Notes under the pieces: model-generated
The model's input: the letters and a program-made list of their open reading frames with translations, nothing else
Database searches by the model: none
What the model was told of the DNA's origin: nothing
Shown here: piece by piece, positions 37,894-43,452 of the stretch
Numbering within the stretch: position 1 is the first letter of the stretch
How the letters are laid out: every line of letters starts with the position of its first letter
Made by a program: the position numbers and the translations under genes
From: Escherichia coli
GTDB taxonomy: Bacteria; Pseudomonadota; Gammaproteobacteria; Enterobacterales; Enterobacteriaceae
Strand: one strand, 5' to 3'
Assembly (NCBI RefSeq): GCF_013122565.1
Contig: NZ_CP053258.1
Length of the DNA stretch: 64,000 bases

Positions 37894-40800
37894 TTACGCC
37901 TTCTCGATGTTGACTAAGAACGCTTTATATTCCGGCGTTTGCGAGTTTGCATCACCGACATTCGGCGTCAGAGTGTTAGCGATATAACCTTTACGCGCGA
38001 CACCCTCAAAGCCCCAGTGGATCGGAATACCCACCGTTTCAACCTGCTGACCATTTACATTCAGCGGTTTCAGACGGCGCGTTACCACCGCCACCGCGCG
38101 GATAAAGCCACGCTTGCTTGAGACAGTGACACGATCGCCATTATTAATGCCTTTCGCCGCCGCCAGCGTTTCGCTGATTTCCACAAACTGTTCCGGCTGA
38201 GCAATTGCGTTGAGCAACGCGTGCTTGGTCCAGGTGTGGAAGTGCTCGGTCAGACGATAGGTCGTACCCACATACGGGAACTGCTCTTTTTTACCCATCC
38301 GCAGCGCGTCTTGTTCATACAGACGAACGACCGGGTTAGACACCACGTTCGGATGCAGCGGGTTAGTGCCCAGCGGCGTTTCAATCGGCTCGTAGTGTTC
38401 CGGGAACGGACCTTCCGCCATTTTGTTGATGGCAAACAGGCGTCCCATCCCTTCCGGCTGCATGATAAACGGCCCGGTTGGCGTACCCGGTGCGGCATTG
38501 CCGAAGTCCGGAATATCGTTACCCGTCCACTTGCTGCCGTTCCACTGGATCAGCATCCGTTTCGGATCCCACGGTTTACCGTTGATATCCGCCGAAGCAC
38601 GGTTGTAGAGTACGCGACGGTTGAGCGGCCACGCCCAGGCCCATCCCAGCGTATTCCCCAGACCGGACGGGTCGGAGTTATCGCGGTTAGCCATCTGGTT
38701 GCCCTGCTCTGTCCAGCTACCGGTGTAGATCCAGCAAGAAGATGCGGTTGTACCGTCATCACGCAGATGCGCAAAGCTACTCAGCAACTGACCTTTCTTC
38801 GCAATCAGCACGCCATTTGCGTCATAGAGATCTTCCAGCGCATAGCCGTTGTTCTCTTTTGCCACTTCGTCAGATTGCGGTTCGTGCGGCTGCTTGTAGT
38901 TCCAGCTCATCTTCATCAGCGGTTCTACGCCTTTACCACCTTCGGCCTGGTACAGCTCGCGCAGATGATGGTAGATACCCGCCAGAATTTCGCCGTCGTT
39001 ACGCGCTTCGCCCGGCGCGTCCTGACCTTTCCAGTGCCACTGCAACCAGCGACCGGAGTTAGCGATAGAACCATCTTCTTCGGCAAAGCAGGTCGAAGGC
39101 AGACGGAATACTTCAGTCTGAATAGACGCCGGATCGACATCGTTCGACTCGCCGTGGTTCTGCCAGAAGGTAGAGGTTTCAGTCACCAGCGGATCGATAA
39201 CCACCATGTACTTCAGCTTGCTCAGGCAGCTCACCACTTTGTTTTTGTCCGGGAAGGACGCAACCGGGTTAAAGCCCTGGCAGAAATAACCGGTGACTTT
39301 GCCTTCGTCCATCATGTTGAAATACTTGATGACGTCGTAGGTCTGGTCCCACTTCGGCAGCCAGTCATAGCCCCAGTTGTTCTCTTTCTGCGCGGCATCG
39401 CCATAGAAAGATTTCATCAGGCTAACGAAGAACTTCGGATAGTTGCTCCAGTAGTTCACCTGATCAGCCAGCGTCGCTTTCGGCGTGTTCGCTTCCAGAT
39501 ACGACTGCAAATCAACCTGTTTTTCTGACGGCAGCGTCAGATAACCTGGCAGGCTGGTAGAGAGCAGGCCTAAGTCAGTCAGGCCCTGAATGTTGGAGTG
39601 ACCACGCAATGCGTTCACGCCGCCACCGGCCATACCCATGTTACCGAGCAGCAACTGGATCATCGCCATAGTACGGATGTTCTGCGCACCCACGGTGTGC
39701 TGCGTCCAGCCCAGCGCGTACAGGAAGGTGGTTGTGCGATCCGGTGCGCTGGTGGAGGCCAGCACTTCACACACTTTCAGGAAGTCGGCTTTTGGCGTAC
39801 CGCAGATGTTTTCAACGACGTCCGGCGTGTAGCGGGAAACGTGCGCTTTCAGCAGGTTCCACACACAGCGCGGATGAGTCAGTGTTTCATCGCGTTTCGC
39901 ATAGCCGTTTTCATCGAACTGATAGTTCCAGGACGATTTATCGTATTGCCGTTTTTCAGCGTCGTAGCCGCTGAACAGACCGTCTTCGAAAGCAAAATCA
40001 TCACGCACCAGCAGGCTGGCGTTGGTGTAATGCTTAACATATTCGGCGTTGATTTTGTTGTTTTCGATCAGGTAGCGCAAAACGCCAGACAGGAACGTAA
40101 TGTCCGTACCGGAACGAATAGGTGCGTAAATATCCGCCACAGAAGCGGTACGCGTAAAACGGGGATCGACAACGATCAGGGTTGCATCGTTGTTGTTTTT
40201 CGCTTCCATCGCCCAGCGGAAACCGACGGGATGCGCTTCCGCAGCGTTACCGCCCATTACCATTACGACGTTAGCGTTTTTGATATCCACCCAGTGGTTG
40301 GTCATCGCACCGCGACCAAATGTTGGAGCAAGACTTGCTACCGTTGGTCCGTGTCAGACGCGCGCCTGGTTGTCTACCGCCAGCATCCCGAGGGAGCGGG
40401 CAAATTTCTGGGTCAGCATCCCGGTTTCGTTGCTGGCACCGGAGGCACACAGCATACCGGTAGAAAGCCAACGGTTTACCGTTACGCCCTGCTCGTTCTT
40501 TTCAATAAAGTTAGCGTCACGGTCAGCTTTCATCAGCTTCGCAATACGGGTGAATGCTTCTTCCCAGCTAATGCGCTGCCATTTGTCAGAACCTGGCGCA
40601 CGATATTCCGGGTAGCGCAGACGGTTTTCGCTGTTGACGTAATCCAGCAAACCGGCCCCTTTCGGACACAGCGCACCACGGCTTACCGGATGATCCGGGT
40701 CACCTTCAATGTGATAAATCGCTTCTCTGGCGTTTTTCGCGCCATCACCCAGGCTATACATCAATAGCCCGCAACCTACGGAACAGTATGTGCAGGTGTT

Positions 40801-40941
40801 ACGGATCTCTTTAGCGCGTAATAATTTGTAGTTTCGCGCCTGAGCCAGTGCTTGCTTCGGGGCAAAGCCCAATGCCGCTACTGTTGTTCCAGCCATACCG
40901 CCCGCGCAGATTTTAAAAAATTGTCTGCGACTGACGTCCAT
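37894..40941 (-). CDS. fdnG: Formate dehydrogenase-N alpha subunit, selenoprotein; in-frame UGA (Sec) at 40354-40356, about 1015 aa
   Basis: Two adjacent same-frame minus-strand ORFs (40354..40941 and 37894..40305) separated only by one TGA; Tat signal RRQFFK at the N-terminus; molybdopterin enzyme motifs. Confidence 0.93.
40311..40353 (-). ncRNA. Candidate SECIS stem-loop immediately 3' of the fdnG UGA (mRNA element)
   Basis: mRNA after UGA: CACGGACCAACGGUAGCAAGUCUUGCUCCAACAUUUGGUC, with GACCAA...UUGGUC and GCAAG...CUUGC complementary arms. Confidence 0.6.
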
Positions 40942-41005
40942 TGCTTTCCTCTTTTTTCAGGGGTATTACTGCGCGAGGAAACTAACAGTAAAATTCTGAA
41001 TCTTT

Positions 41006-41019
41006 TTGCGCGAAATCAA
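41006..41019. promoter_or_regulatory. FNR-box-like site upstream of fdnG
   Basis: TTGCG-cgaa-ATCAA versus consensus TTGAT-N4-ATCAA, about 70 bp upstream of the fdnG start codon. Confidence 0.5.
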
Positions 41020-41172
41020 AAAGAACACGTGTTTGCCACAAAATAATCCGCCTGCGCAAATTGACCTACCTCAATAGCGGTAGAAAAACGCACCACTGCC
41101 TGACAGGCCAGTTAAAAAAATGCTATAAAATTCAGCTTAATTTTTAACGGCAAGAGAGACAAAACAGCGAGC

Positions 41173-42054
41173 ATGACACGACAAAAAGCAACGCTCATAG
41201 GGCTAATAGCGATCGTCCTGTGGAGCACGATGGTAGGATTGATTCGCGGTGTCAGTGAGGGGCTCGGCCCGGTCGGCGGTGCAGCTGCTATCTATTCATT
41301 AAGCGGGCTGCTGTTAATCTTCACAGTTGGATTTCCGCGTATTCGGCAAATCCCGAAAGGCTATTTGCTCGCCGGGAGTCTGTTATTCGTCAGCTATGAA
41401 ATCTGTCTGGCGCTTTCATTAGGGTATGCGGCGACCCGTCATCAGGCGATTGAAGTGGGTATGGTGAACTATCTATGGCCCAGCCTGACAATTCTCTTTG
41501 CCATTCTGTTTAATGGTCAGAAAACCAACTGGCTGATTGTACCAGGATTATTATTAGCCCTCGTCGGCGTCTGCTGGGTGCTAGGCGGTGACAATGGGTT
41601 ACATTATGATGAAATCATCAATAATATCACCACCAGTCCATTGAGTTATTTCCTGGCGTTTATTGGTGCGTTTATCTGGGCAGCCTATTGCACAGTAACG
41701 AATAAATACGCACGCGGATTTAATGGAATTACCGTTTTTGTCCTGCTAACGGGAGCAAGTCTGTGGGTTTACTATTTTCTCACGCCACAACCAGAAATGG
41801 TATTTAGCACGCCCGTCATGATTAAACTCATCTCTGCGGCATTTACCTTAGGATTTGCTTATGCTGCATGGAATGTCGGTATATTGCATGGCAACGTCAC
41901 TATTATGGCGGTAGGTTCGTATTTTACGCCCGTACTTTCCTCAGCGCTTGCAGCCGTGCTGCTCAGCGCCCCGCTGTCGTTCTCGTTCTGGCAAGGCGCG
42001 CTAATGGTCTGCGGCGGTTCCCTGCTCTGCTGGCTGGCGACACGTCGTGGTTAA
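41173..42054 (+). CDS. yddG: Aromatic amino acid exporter (DMT family), 293 aa
   Basis: Ten-helix EamA-like membrane protein, full length. Confidence 0.93.
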   Translation: MTRQKATLIGLIAIVLWSTMVGLIRGVSEGLGPVGGAAAIYSLSGLLLIFTVGFPRIRQIPKGYLLAGSLLFVSYEICLALSLGYAATRHQAIEVGMVNYLWPSLTILFAILFNGQKTNWLIVPGLLLALVGVCWVLGGDNGLHYDEIINNITTSPLSYFLAFIGAFIWAAYCTVTNKYARGFNGITVFVLLTGASLWVYYFLTPQPEMVFSTPVMIKLISAAFTLGFAYAAWNVGILHGNVTIMAVGSYFTPVLSSALAAVLLSAPLSFSFWQGALMVCGGSLLCWLATRRG

Positions 42055-42313: not shown

Positions 42314-43414
42314 ATGAAATTAAAAATAGTTGCGGTGGTTGTAACTGGTTTGTTAGCTGCGAACGTAGCACACGCTGCCGAAGTCTATAACAAGGATGGT
42401 AATAAACTCGACCTTTATGGCAAGGTTACCGCTCTACGTTATTTTACTGATGATAAGCGTGACGATGGTGATAAAACTTATGCCCGTCTCGGCTTTAAAG
42501 GAGAAACGCAAATCAATGATCAAATAGTTGGTTTTGGTCACTGGGAATATGATTTTAAAGGCTATAACGATGAAGCCAACGGCTCGCGCGGCAACAAGAC
42601 CCGTCTGGCCTATGCAGGTTTAAAAATTAGTGATTTTGGCTCTCTGGACTATGGTCGTAACTACGGTGTCGGCTATGACATTGGTTCATGGACCGATATG
42701 TTGCCAGAATTTGGTGGCGATACCTGGAGTCAGAAAGATGTCTTCATGACATACCGTACCACCGGTGTAGCAACCTATCGCAACTACGATTTCTTTGGCT
42801 TAATTGAAGGGCTGAACTTTGCCGCGCAATATCAAGGCAAAAATGAACGTACTGACAACAGTCATCTTTATGGTGCTGACTACACGCGCGCCAACGGTGA
42901 CGGTTTCGGTATCTCCTCAACTTATGTTTATGATGGCTTTGGTATCGGTGCGGTATATACCAAATCTGATCGGACAAATGCGCAGGAAAGAGCCGCTGCT
43001 AATCCTCTCAATGCCTCCGGTAAGAATGCAGAACTGTGGGCTACAGGTATAAAATATGGTGCCAACAACATCTACTTTGCAGCTAATTACGCTGAAACAT
43101 TAAACATGACCACCTATGGCGATGGTTATATCTCGAACAAAGCACAAAGTTTTGAAGTGGTGGCGCAATATCAATTCGACTTCGGCTTGCGCCCATCACT
43201 CGCTTACCTGAAATCGAAAGGCAGAGATCTGGGCCGCTACGGCGACCAGGACATGATTGAGTATATCGACGTTGGTGCGACGTATTTCTTCAACAAAAAT
43301 ATGTCGACCTATGTTGATTATAAAATCAACCTGATTGATGAAAGCGATTTTACCCGTGCCGTAGATATTCGCACCGATAACATCGTCGCTACGGGCATTA
43401 CCTATCAGTTCTAA
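42314..43414 (+). CDS. Intact OmpC/OmpD-family general porin, 366 aa (yddL position)
   Basis: Signal peptide ...[20 protein letters not shown]; porin hallmarks (PEFGGDT, C-terminal ...TYQF); adjacent to yddG as Salmonella ompD is. Confidence 0.88.
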
Positions 43415-43427
43415 CATCCTCTCCTGA

Positions 43428-43452
43428 CCAGCCCTTCTCTGGGCTGGTTTTT
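43428..43452 (+). terminator. Rho-independent terminator after the porin gene
   Basis: ccagccc / ttctct / gggctgg followed by ttttt. Confidence 0.8.

What the first reader, a model, noticed from the sequence alone, without database searches (positions are those of the whole stretch)
41006..41019. FNR-like box in the fdnG promoter region
TTGCG-cgaa-ATCAA (9 of 10 against TTGAT-N4-ATCAA) lies about 70 bp upstream of the fdnG start codon on the divergent fdnG/yddG intergenic region, consistent with anaerobic induction of formate dehydrogenase-N.
Basis: partly seen in the sequence, partly recalled or inferred. Interest (0 to 1): 0.25.

Follow-up and report, generated by a model that had tools for sequence, protein, structure and literature searches.

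The report
Known FNR site of fdnG promoter
The flagged 14-base box is the already characterised binding site, centred 42.5 bases upstream of the transcription start, through which the oxygen sensor FNR switches on the E. coli formate dehydrogenase-N operon; it is ordinary, though a stronger Escherichia-only FNR-like box lies 55 bases further upstream.

Summary
The window is E. coli. The sequence TTGCGCGAAATCAA is at 41006-41019, in the divergent fdnG/yddG intergenic region, and its centre is 71.5 bp upstream of the fdnG ATG. It matches TTGAT-N4-ATCAA at 8 of 10 positions, not 9. Such matches occur about once per kb, so the motif alone is not beyond chance.

Position and conservation identify it. 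Published fdnG coordinates (FNR -42.5; NarL heptamers -100 and -109) all fit the sequence only if +1 is 40970, and that puts this box at exactly -42.5.

In 55 genomes from 12 named genera, chosen by coding sequence only, each fdnG upstream region has exactly one such box (TTGATTT-NN-CGCAA). In 50 of them it lies 18-19 bp before an extended -10 (TGnTAGTTT). This is class II FNR activation with NarL co-activation, and it is already known.

An FNR matrix scan ranks this box only 9th in the window. The top hit is a second box at 41061-41074 (-97.5), which overlaps the NarL 7-2-7 site. A published ChIP-seq study lists that box as the fdnG FNR site. It occurs only in Escherichia and its role is untested.

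The parts
41006..41019 (-). FNR binding site of the fdnG promoter, TTGATTTCGCGCAA in the fdnG sense, centred at -42.5 (class II position). The promoter-distal half TTGAT is perfect and the promoter-proximal half is CGCAA.
   Evidence: Sequence. It has 2 mismatches to the consensus and scores 10.3 bits. The -42.5 position follows from triangulation with the literature. It is present once in each of 55 genomes as TTGATTT-NN-CGCAA. Its half-sites carry 1.96 of 2 bits of genus-weighted information. The surrounding 40-mer is matched in 5406 of 5426 E. coli genomes.
40979..40987 (-). Extended -10 element TGTTAGTTT (TGn + TAGTTT) of fdnGp
   Evidence: In 50 of 55 genomes a TGnTAGTTT-like element lies a fixed 18 bp (19 bp in two) downstream of the FNR box, while the distance to the ATG varies from 74 to 223 bp. 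Mean information is 1.48 bits. The consensus promoter scan did not call it, as expected for an activator-dependent promoter without a -35.
40970..40970 (-). Inferred fdnG transcription start (+1, an A), 29 nt before the A of the ATG
   Evidence: Inferred, not measured here. It is the only +1 that makes the published positions -42.5, -100 and -109 coincide with the FNR box and the two NarL heptamers.
41067..41082 (.). NarL/NarP 7-2-7 inverted heptamer pair TACCGCT-AT-TGAGGTA (heptamer centres -109 and -100)
   Evidence: These are the only two TACYYMT matches with one mismatch or fewer in the intergenic region. 7-2-7 sites are reported for fdnG (PMC2718512). A TACYYMT-NN-AKRRGTA-type palindrome stands at the same offset from the FNR box in most other genera.
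41061..41074 (.). Second FNR-like box, TTGAGGTAGGTCAA in the fdnG sense, centred at -97.5. It lies 55 bp upstream of the -42.5 box and overlaps the -100 NarL heptamer.
   Evidence: It is the top FNR matrix score in the whole window, 15.8 bits with this site left out of the training set. Myers 2013 Table S6 lists it as the predicted site (1545292, ln p -12.93) at the yddG/fdnG ChIP-seq peak centred at 1545309. Apart from one MAG contig labelled Citrobacter that is identical to E. coli here, it was found only in Escherichia: E. coli, E. albertii and Escherichia sp.. It is unchanged in the E. coli variant strain inspected.
41035..41048 (-). Conserved block at -78 to -65 (E. coli GATTATTTTGTGGC; cross-genus consensus GACTATTAAGTGGG), next to the reported -77 NarL heptamer
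   Evidence: Anchored conservation profile and alignment. The -77 heptamer position comes from PMC3349551. Its function was not tested here.
37894..40941 (-). fdnG coding sequence (formate dehydrogenase-N alpha subunit), with an in-frame UGA (selenocysteine) at 40354-40356
   Evidence: ORFs 40354..40941 and 37894..40305. The span is annotated as one fdnG CDS in identical genomes.
41173..42054 (+). yddG (aromatic amino acid exporter), the divergent neighbour

Best explanation
The box at 41006-41019 is the FNR operator of the fdnGHI promoter. Under anaerobiosis a dimer of [4Fe-4S]-FNR binds TTGATTTCGCGCAA centred at -42.5. There it overlaps the position of a -35 element and recruits RNA polymerase to an extended -10 promoter (TGTTAGTTT). 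This is class II activation. The site is a deliberately imperfect match. FNR alone gives little expression, and full induction needs phospho-NarL (or NarP) bound at the upstream 7-2-7 heptamer pair (-109/-100) and neighbouring heptamers when nitrate is present. Shown here: the sequence, its position, the architecture and its conservation. Taken from the literature: FNR and NarL dependence, and the -42.5 designation. Inferred: the exact +1 (40970), and the idea that the weak half-site is kept in order to enforce co-dependence on NarL.
For: The window is E. coli, and its fdnG-yddG intergenic region is collinear with K-12 MG1655. There are 3 substitutions and none falls in either box.

Published positions (FNR -42.5; NarL -77, -100, -109, -124; PMC3349551) fit the sequence with a single +1 at 40970. 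With that +1 the box centre is -42.5 and the only two good NarL heptamers are centred at -109 and -100.

Myers et al. report that 19 of 23 FNR-activated promoters have the site at -41.5 +/- 4.

An FNR ChIP-seq and ChIP-chip peak lies in this intergenic region. It was called by all four peak callers and was also seen in an earlier ChIP-chip study. fdnG is listed as activated by FNR in nitrate and by NarL.

The hcp FNR site listed as ChIP-bound, TTGATTTAGCGCAA, differs from this box by one spacer base.

I retrieved 55 genomes from 12 named genera (plus unclassified Enterobacteriaceae MAGs) using only a codon pattern for the FdnG N-terminus. Every one has exactly one TTGAT-N4-NNCAA in the 300 bp upstream. 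In 54 of 55 the proximal half is CGCAA. In 50 of 55 the box lies 18-19 bp before TGnTAGTTT, even where 5'-UTR insertions move the ATG 50-150 bp away. The half-sites are the most conserved 5-4-5 frame in the anchored region, rank 1 of 123.
Against: As a bare motif the box is weak. It is 8 of 10, scores 10.3 bits, ranks 9th in the window, falls below all 62 training sites, and is absent from Myers' Table S6 at their threshold.

The ChIP-seq peak centre (1545309) is 10.5 bp from the upstream -97.5 box and 44.5 bp from this one. However, 30% of single-site peaks in that study are off by at least 44.5 bp, so this does not decide between them.

I could not read the primary mapping papers (Li and Stewart 1992; Darwin, Li and Stewart 1996). 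The -42.5 designation therefore rests on a secondary citation plus triangulation, and the +1 is inferred.

The anchored conservation profile was anchored on a regular expression that forces TTGAT and CAA. The unanchored MAFFT alignment shows the same block.
Confidence: 0.93

Rival explanations
1. The functional FNR site of this region is the upstream box at 41061-41074 (-97.5), and the reader's box is a chance 8-of-10 match.
For: The upstream box has the top FNR matrix score in the 64 kb window, 15.8 against 10.3 bits. It is the site Myers et al. list under the yddG/fdnG peak, and the peak centre is only 10.5 bp from it.
Against: A site at -97.5 is not an activating class II position. The upstream box is absent from every non-Escherichia genome sampled, all of which keep the -42.5 box and the NarL palindrome; best FNR scores there are below 7 bits. 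The -42.5 box is conserved at a fixed spacing to the -10 in 50 of 55 genomes, which a chance match would not show. The literature places the site at -42.5. ChIP peak offsets (median 23.5 bp) cannot separate boxes 55 bp apart.
Confidence: 0.03
2. Both boxes bind FNR in Escherichia. The -42.5 box activates. The -97.5 box is a lineage-specific modulatory site. It may damp fdnG in the absence of nitrate, as the -93.5 site of yfiD does, until phospho-NarL displaces FNR from the overlapping 7-2-7. Alternatively it may act on the divergent yddG promoter.
For: The matrix score is high and the ChIP peak centre is close. The box overlaps the -100 NarL heptamer. The 55-bp spacing resembles the 53 bp between the two yfiD sites in Table S6, where the upstream site down-regulates (Green et al. 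1998, cited). FNR occupies the region in glucose minimal medium without any FNR-dependent expression change (Category 3). E. albertii retains the box with only one spacer change. By my reading a plausible yddG promoter (CTGACA-18-TATAAA, 41100-41129) would put this box near -69 to -71.
Against: There is no functional evidence. The box is not conserved outside Escherichia, although the 7-2-7 palindrome there is conserved and nitrate control presumably is too. Half of the box is a NarL heptamer that is constrained anyway, so its retention within a young genus proves little. The promoter scan tool did not call the yddG promoter. Myers et al. saw no FNR-dependent change for yddG or fdnG in their medium.
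Confidence: 0.25
3. The box is a site for another CRP/FNR-family or unrelated regulator (for example CRP), not FNR.
For: CRP and FNR sites are related inverted repeats. The conserved non-consensus CGC in the proximal half could hint at a second reader.
Against: The perfect half is TTGAT, the FNR type, and not the CRP-type GTGA core. The literature assigns FNR. The ChIP-bound hcp FNR site is nearly identical.
Confidence: 0.02

Closest known systems
E. coli K-12 fdnG operon control region (Fnr site at -42.5; NarL heptamers at -77/-79, -100, -109, -124)
   Same: This is the same locus. The window is collinear with MG1655 and both boxes are identical. All published positions fit.
   Different: Nothing in the site itself differs. 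There are three substitutions elsewhere in the intergenic region. The strain also carries about 2.2 kb more than K-12 between yddG and narU.
Class II FNR-activated, NarL co-activated promoters narG, nirB and nrfA (FNR at -41.5)
   Same: FNR sits at about -41.5 and overlaps the -35 position, and nitrate-responsive NarL/NarP heptamers lie upstream.
   Different: The narG and nirB FNR sites are perfect or near-perfect matches to the consensus (Table S6 scores 14.8 and 17.1). The fdnG site is kept at 8 of 10 in all genera examined. The fdnG NarL 7-2-7 is only about 60 bp upstream of the FNR site.
hcp FNR site TTGATTTAGCGCAA
   Same: It differs from the fdnG box by one spacer base and has the same GCGCAA proximal half. 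It is listed as ChIP-bound.
   Different: By my recollection it sits further upstream of its start, at a class I-type position rather than class II. It passes Myers' matrix threshold, and the fdnG box does not.
yfiD tandem FNR sites (-40.5 and -93.5)
   Same: Two FNR-type boxes lie about five helical turns apart: 53 bp in yfiD (Table S6) and 55 bp here.
   Different: In yfiD both sites are strong and the upstream one is shown to down-regulate. Here the upstream box overlaps a NarL site, is Escherichia-specific and is functionally untested.

Membership tests
FNR binding site (TTGAT-N4-ATCAA) | Inverted-repeat match to the consensus, with the conserved G/C of each half-site | tested here: met
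   The box is 8 of 10. The TTGAT half is perfect and the CGCAA half keeps C, A, A. It differs by one spacer base from the ChIP-bound hcp site.
FNR binding site (TTGAT-N4-ATCAA) | Score above the threshold of a matrix built from bound sites | tested here: not met
   The box scores 10.3 bits. The lowest training site scores 11.4 bits and the median is 14.7. The box is not in the part of Myers' Table S6 that I read (part 1 of 2, threshold ln p <= -10.75), which lists the ChIP-bound sites. Known functional FNR sites can be partial matches, so this lowers the motif evidence but not the assignment.
FNR binding site (TTGAT-N4-ATCAA) | FNR occupancy in vivo | tested here: inconclusive
   A robust ChIP-seq and ChIP-chip peak lies in the yddG/fdnG intergenic region. 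Its centre is 44.5 bp from this box and 10.5 bp from the other. Peak-to-site offsets in that study have a median of 23.5 bp, and 30% are at least 44.5 bp.
Class II FNR-dependent promoter | Site centred at about -41.5 (+/-4) from the transcription start | tested here: met
   The box is at -42.5 with +1 = 40970. That +1 is fixed by the published -100 and -109 NarL heptamers. The +1 is inferred and was not measured here.
Class II FNR-dependent promoter | Fixed spacing of the site to the -10 element, conserved among orthologous promoters | tested here: met
   The box lies 18 bp (19 bp in two) before TGnTAGTTT in 50 of 55 genomes, while the distance to the ATG varies from 74 to 223 bp.
Class II FNR-dependent promoter | FNR-dependent anaerobic expression abolished by mutation of the site | not testable with these tools
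   Literature only. The fdn operon is regulated by Fnr, NarL and NarP and is activated by FNR in nitrate and by NarL. The primary mutational papers could not be read.
NarL/NarP 7-2-7 site | Two TACYYMT heptamers in inverted orientation separated by 2 bp | tested here: met
   TACCGCT-AT-TGAGGTA at 41067-41082, with one mismatch in each heptamer. fdnG is named among the genes with 7-2-7 sites. Palindromes stand at the same offset in most other genera.
Tandem-FNR (yfiD-like) down-modulation, considered for the -97.5 box | A second high-affinity FNR site about 53 bp upstream of the class II site | tested here: met
   The -97.5 box scores 15.8 bits and is rank 1 in the window. It is 55 bp upstream of the -42.5 box. 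The yfiD sites are 53 bp apart.
Tandem-FNR (yfiD-like) down-modulation, considered for the -97.5 box | The upstream site lowers expression when occupied | not testable with these tools
   No data were found. The box is not conserved outside Escherichia.

The most novel reading that the evidence does not exclude
In Escherichia only, the fdnG control region carries a second, much stronger FNR box at -97.5, fused to the NarL 7-2-7 site. FNR bound there, which may be what the published ChIP-seq peak mostly reports, could hold the promoter down without nitrate in the manner of the yfiD upstream site, and phospho-NarL could displace it. In that case part of 'NarL activation' in E. coli would be anti-repression of FNR by competition for overlapping DNA. 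Alternatively the box could serve the divergent yddG promoter.
Probability: 0.2. Interest if true: 0.45.

Novelty: already known. Interest (0 to 1): 0.12.

Why it matters
The flagged box is textbook E. coli regulation, so it adds no new biology. It does confirm that the first-stage reader located a real operator from sequence alone.

Two by-products are useful. First, matrix-based genome-wide annotation (Myers et al. 2013, Table S6) assigns the yddG/fdnG FNR ChIP peak to a different box from the classical -42.5 site. Curators and regulon modellers who use those tables should know that the region holds two candidate sites. Only the weak one is at an activating position and conserved across Enterobacteriaceae.

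Second, the non-consensus half-site CGCAA is preserved in 54 of 55 genomes from 12 named genera. This is a clear example of a weak operator being maintained, which is consistent with an enforced dependence on a co-activator.

Tried and rejected
I tried to read the primary papers: Li and Stewart 1992 (PubMed id and PMC206306), Wang and Gunsalus 2003 (PMC180993), Stewart and Bledsoe 2003 (PMC151514), and two PMC ids that I took to be later nitrate-regulation papers (PMC3034140, PMC3068693). None is held.

Searches for text describing the fdnG promoter returned mostly reference-list hits. Searching the box sequences themselves in papers gave only three unrelated-looking papers, which I did not open.

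Federowicz et al. 2014 and Latif et al. 2018 (FNR ChIP-chip and ChIP-exo) do not mention fdnG in their main text, so I found no higher-resolution occupancy data.

The consensus sigma-70 promoter scan found nothing in 40900-41200. That is uninformative for an activator-dependent extended -10 promoter.

I considered using the ChIP-seq peak centre to choose between the two boxes. I rejected this after calibrating peak-to-site offsets in the same study.

I also considered and rejected a CRP site and a chance match (see rival explanations).

Full report
**Observation.** The window is Escherichia coli. A 1.2-kb stretch around the finding is 100% identical to many complete E. coli chromosomes and is annotated there as fdnG and yddG. 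fdnG lies on the minus strand. The A of its ATG is at 40941. The ORF is interrupted by the in-frame UGA expected for selenocysteine, and the whole gene spans 37894-40941. yddG is divergent, on the plus strand at 41173-42054.

The flagged 14-mer is present as described, TTGCGCGAAATCAA at 41006-41019. In the fdnG sense it reads TTGATTTCGCGCAA. Its centre is 71.5 bp upstream of the ATG.

The box has two mismatches to TTGAT-N4-ATCAA, so it is 8 of 10 and not 9 of 10.

**Is it more than chance?** As a motif match it is not.
- The window contains 61 sites with two or fewer mismatches, against 44.9 +/- 6.5 in dinucleotide shuffles.
- I built a symmetrised matrix from the 62 other ChIP-bound FNR sites in Table S6 of Myers et al. 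2013 (PMC3688515).
That is rank 9 of 63,987 positions and below the weakest training site at 11.4 bits.
- The top score in the whole window (15.8 bits, with this site left out of the training set) belongs to a different box, 41061-41074. It lies in the same intergenic region and reads TTGAGGTAGGTCAA in the fdnG sense.

**What the literature says.** The fdn operon is regulated by Fnr, NarL and NarP (PMC1805755).

Babujee et al. 2012 (PMC3349551, citing Darwin, Li and Stewart 1996) give the E. coli fdnG architecture. The FNR site is at -42.5 and NarL heptamers are at -77, -100, -109 and -124.

The window's intergenic region is collinear with K-12 MG1655. It has three substitutions and none falls in either box. 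K-12 coordinates therefore transfer directly.

A scan for the NarL heptamer TACYYMT finds only two matches with one mismatch or fewer in the intergenic region. They form a 7-2-7 inverted pair, TACCGCT-AT-TGAGGTA, at 41067-41082. Their centres are at -109 and -100 if, and only if, +1 is 40970. Three independent published numbers thus fit one start site, an A 29 nt before the ATG. That start is inferred here, not measured.

The primary mapping papers could not be read.

**The ChIP-seq discrepancy.** Myers et al. report a strong FNR peak in the yddG/fdnG intergenic region, centred at 1545309 in U00096.2 coordinates. All four peak callers found it, and an earlier ChIP-chip study saw it too.

Their matrix search lists the site under that peak as 1545292, TTGAGGTAGGTCAA (ln p -12.93). 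The coordinate mapping was checked.

The peak centre is 10.5 bp from the upstream box and 44.5 bp from the -42.5 box. I calibrated peak-to-site offsets on their own tables. The median is 23.5 bp, and 30% of single-site peaks are off by at least 44.5 bp. The ChIP data therefore show that FNR occupies this region in vivo, but they cannot say which box.

The hcp site listed there as ChIP-bound, TTGATTTAGCGCAA, differs from it by a single spacer base.

**Comparative test.** I scanned one genome per species (GTDB set) with a degenerate codon pattern for the FdnG N-terminus (MDVSRRQFFKICAG). The selection was therefore independent of the promoter. It returned 55 loci from Escherichia, Salmonella, Citrobacter, Enterobacter, Leclercia, Kosakonia, Silvania, Phytobacter, Pluralibacter, Pseudenterobacter, Shimwellia, Trabulsiella, Yokenella and unclassified MAGs.

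The -42.5 box is conserved throughout.
- Every locus has exactly one TTGAT-N4-NNCAA within 300 bp upstream of the ATG.
- It always has the form TTGATTT-NN-CGCAA. In 54 of 55 the proximal half is CGCAA; Pseudenterobacter has CTCAA.
- In 50 of 55 it lies 18 bp (19 bp in two) before an extended -10 element, TGnTAGTTT.
- The distance to the ATG ranges from 74 to 223 bp because of 5'-UTR insertions. The conserved spacing is therefore to the promoter and not to the gene.
- An unanchored MAFFT alignment shows the same block.
- In a genus-weighted profile the ten half-site positions carry 1.96 of 2 bits. This is the best of 123 possible 5-4-5 frames, against 0.55 bits for the rest of the region. The anchoring regular expression forces eight of these positions, but the unforced CG and the TT of the spacer are also nearly invariant.

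The upstream -97.5 box behaves differently.
- At the homologous offset (-55 bp from the -42.5 box), most other genera keep a NarL/NarP-type palindrome. None has an FNR-like site; best scores are below 7 bits.
- The high-scoring box occurs only in E. coli, E. albertii (TTGAGGTAAGTCAA) and an unnamed Escherichia species. It also occurs in one MAG contig labelled Citrobacter that is identical to E. coli here.

Within E. coli both boxes are essentially fixed. The 40-mer around the -42.5 box is matched in 5406 of 5426 genomes. In the one variant strain I inspected, the single mismatch in the 40-mer around the upstream box lies outside that box.

**Mechanism.** The evidence supports the standard model. 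Active FNR binds at -42.5, within the +/-4 window around -41.5 where 19 of 23 FNR-activated promoters have their site. From there it activates an extended -10 promoter that lacks a -35 element. Phospho-NarL, or NarP, at the 7-2-7 and neighbouring heptamers supplies the nitrate signal.

fdnG is in Myers' Category 3. FNR is bound in glucose minimal medium, but expression changes only with nitrate and NarL.

The conserved imperfection of the proximal half-site (CGCAA) suggests selection for a weak operator, so that FNR alone is insufficient. That is an inference.

**Rivals.** The idea that only the upstream box is functional conflicts with its non-activating position, its absence outside Escherichia and the literature.

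A two-site reading remains open. The upstream box overlaps the -100 NarL heptamer and lies 55 bp from the class II site. This resembles the two yfiD sites, which are 53 bp apart in Table S6 and whose -93.5 site down-regulates (Green et al. 1998, cited). FNR there might damp fdnG until NarL displaces it.

Alternatively the upstream box might serve the divergent yddG promoter. By my reading that promoter is CTGACA-18-TATAAA at 41100-41129. The scan tool did not call it.

Nothing tests either idea here. Myers et al. saw no FNR-dependent change for either gene in their medium.

**Verdict.** The element is already known, so interest is low.

The points worth recording are the disagreement between the classical site and the matrix-assigned ChIP site, the Escherichia-specific strong box fused to the NarL site, and the conservation of a suboptimal half-site across the family.

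Noticed in passing
window 41061-41074: A second FNR-like box (TTGACCTACCTCAA on the plus strand) has the best FNR matrix score in the whole window. It overlaps the -100 NarL heptamer and is listed by Myers et al. 2013 as the FNR site under the yddG/fdnG ChIP-seq peak. Among the sampled genomes it was found only in Escherichia, plus one E. coli-identical MAG contig labelled Citrobacter.
   Followed up: yes
window 41035-41048: A block between the NarL 7-2-7 and the FNR box (E. coli GATTATTTTGTGGC; cross-genus consensus GACTATTAAGTGGG) is conserved in most genera. It is more conserved than the 7-2-7 itself and lies next to the reported -77 NarL heptamer. Its binding factor was not established here.
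   Followed up: partly
window 41006-41010 (the CGCAA half of the box, fdnG sense): The non-consensus half-site CGCAA is kept in 54 of 55 genomes from 12 named genera, although a change to TCAA would raise the FNR score by about 5 bits (as in Pseudenterobacter, 15.6 bits). This suggests selection for a weak operator or a second constraint on these bases.
   Followed up: partly
window 41100-41129: A possible sigma-70 promoter for yddG, CTGACA-18 bp-TATAAA. It is my reading of the sequence, and the consensus scan tool did not report it. It would put the upstream FNR-like box at about -69 to -71 relative to yddG.
   Followed up: no
L003, L010, L013, L019, L020, L025, L026, L028, L036, L041, L051 (Citrobacter and a Raoultella-labelled MAG); L047, L056 (Salmonella); L043; L023: The fdnG 5'-UTR carries an insertion of about 50-60 bp in the Citrobacter freundii group and in Salmonella. 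Larger insertions occur in Phytobacter diazotrophicus (box 184 bp from the ATG) and Enterobacter wuhouensis (223 bp). The FNR box to -10 spacing is unchanged in all of them.
   Followed up: no
L015 (DXKH01000009.1, 'Citrobacter sp. HRGM_Genome_0066' MAG): Its fdnG promoter region is identical to E. coli, including the Escherichia-only upstream box, and is unlike all other Citrobacter. The contig is probably mis-binned or mislabelled.
   Followed up: no
window 47425-47438: An FNR-like site, GTGACGTTGATCAA (13.8 bits, second best in the window), lies inside narU just upstream of narZ. It corresponds to Myers Table S6 site 1541120, which was predicted but not ChIP-bound.
   Followed up: partly
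window 42314-46159: Between yddG and narU this strain has an intact porin gene (annotated ompC-like, 366 aa) and leucine-rich-repeat genes. It carries about 2.2 kb more than K-12 in this interval, judging from the shifted position of the narU FNR-like site.
   Followed up: no
window 40354-40356: The in-frame UGA in fdnG (selenocysteine codon) splits the mechanical ORF list into 195-aa and 803-aa pieces. This is expected for formate dehydrogenase-N.
   Followed up: no
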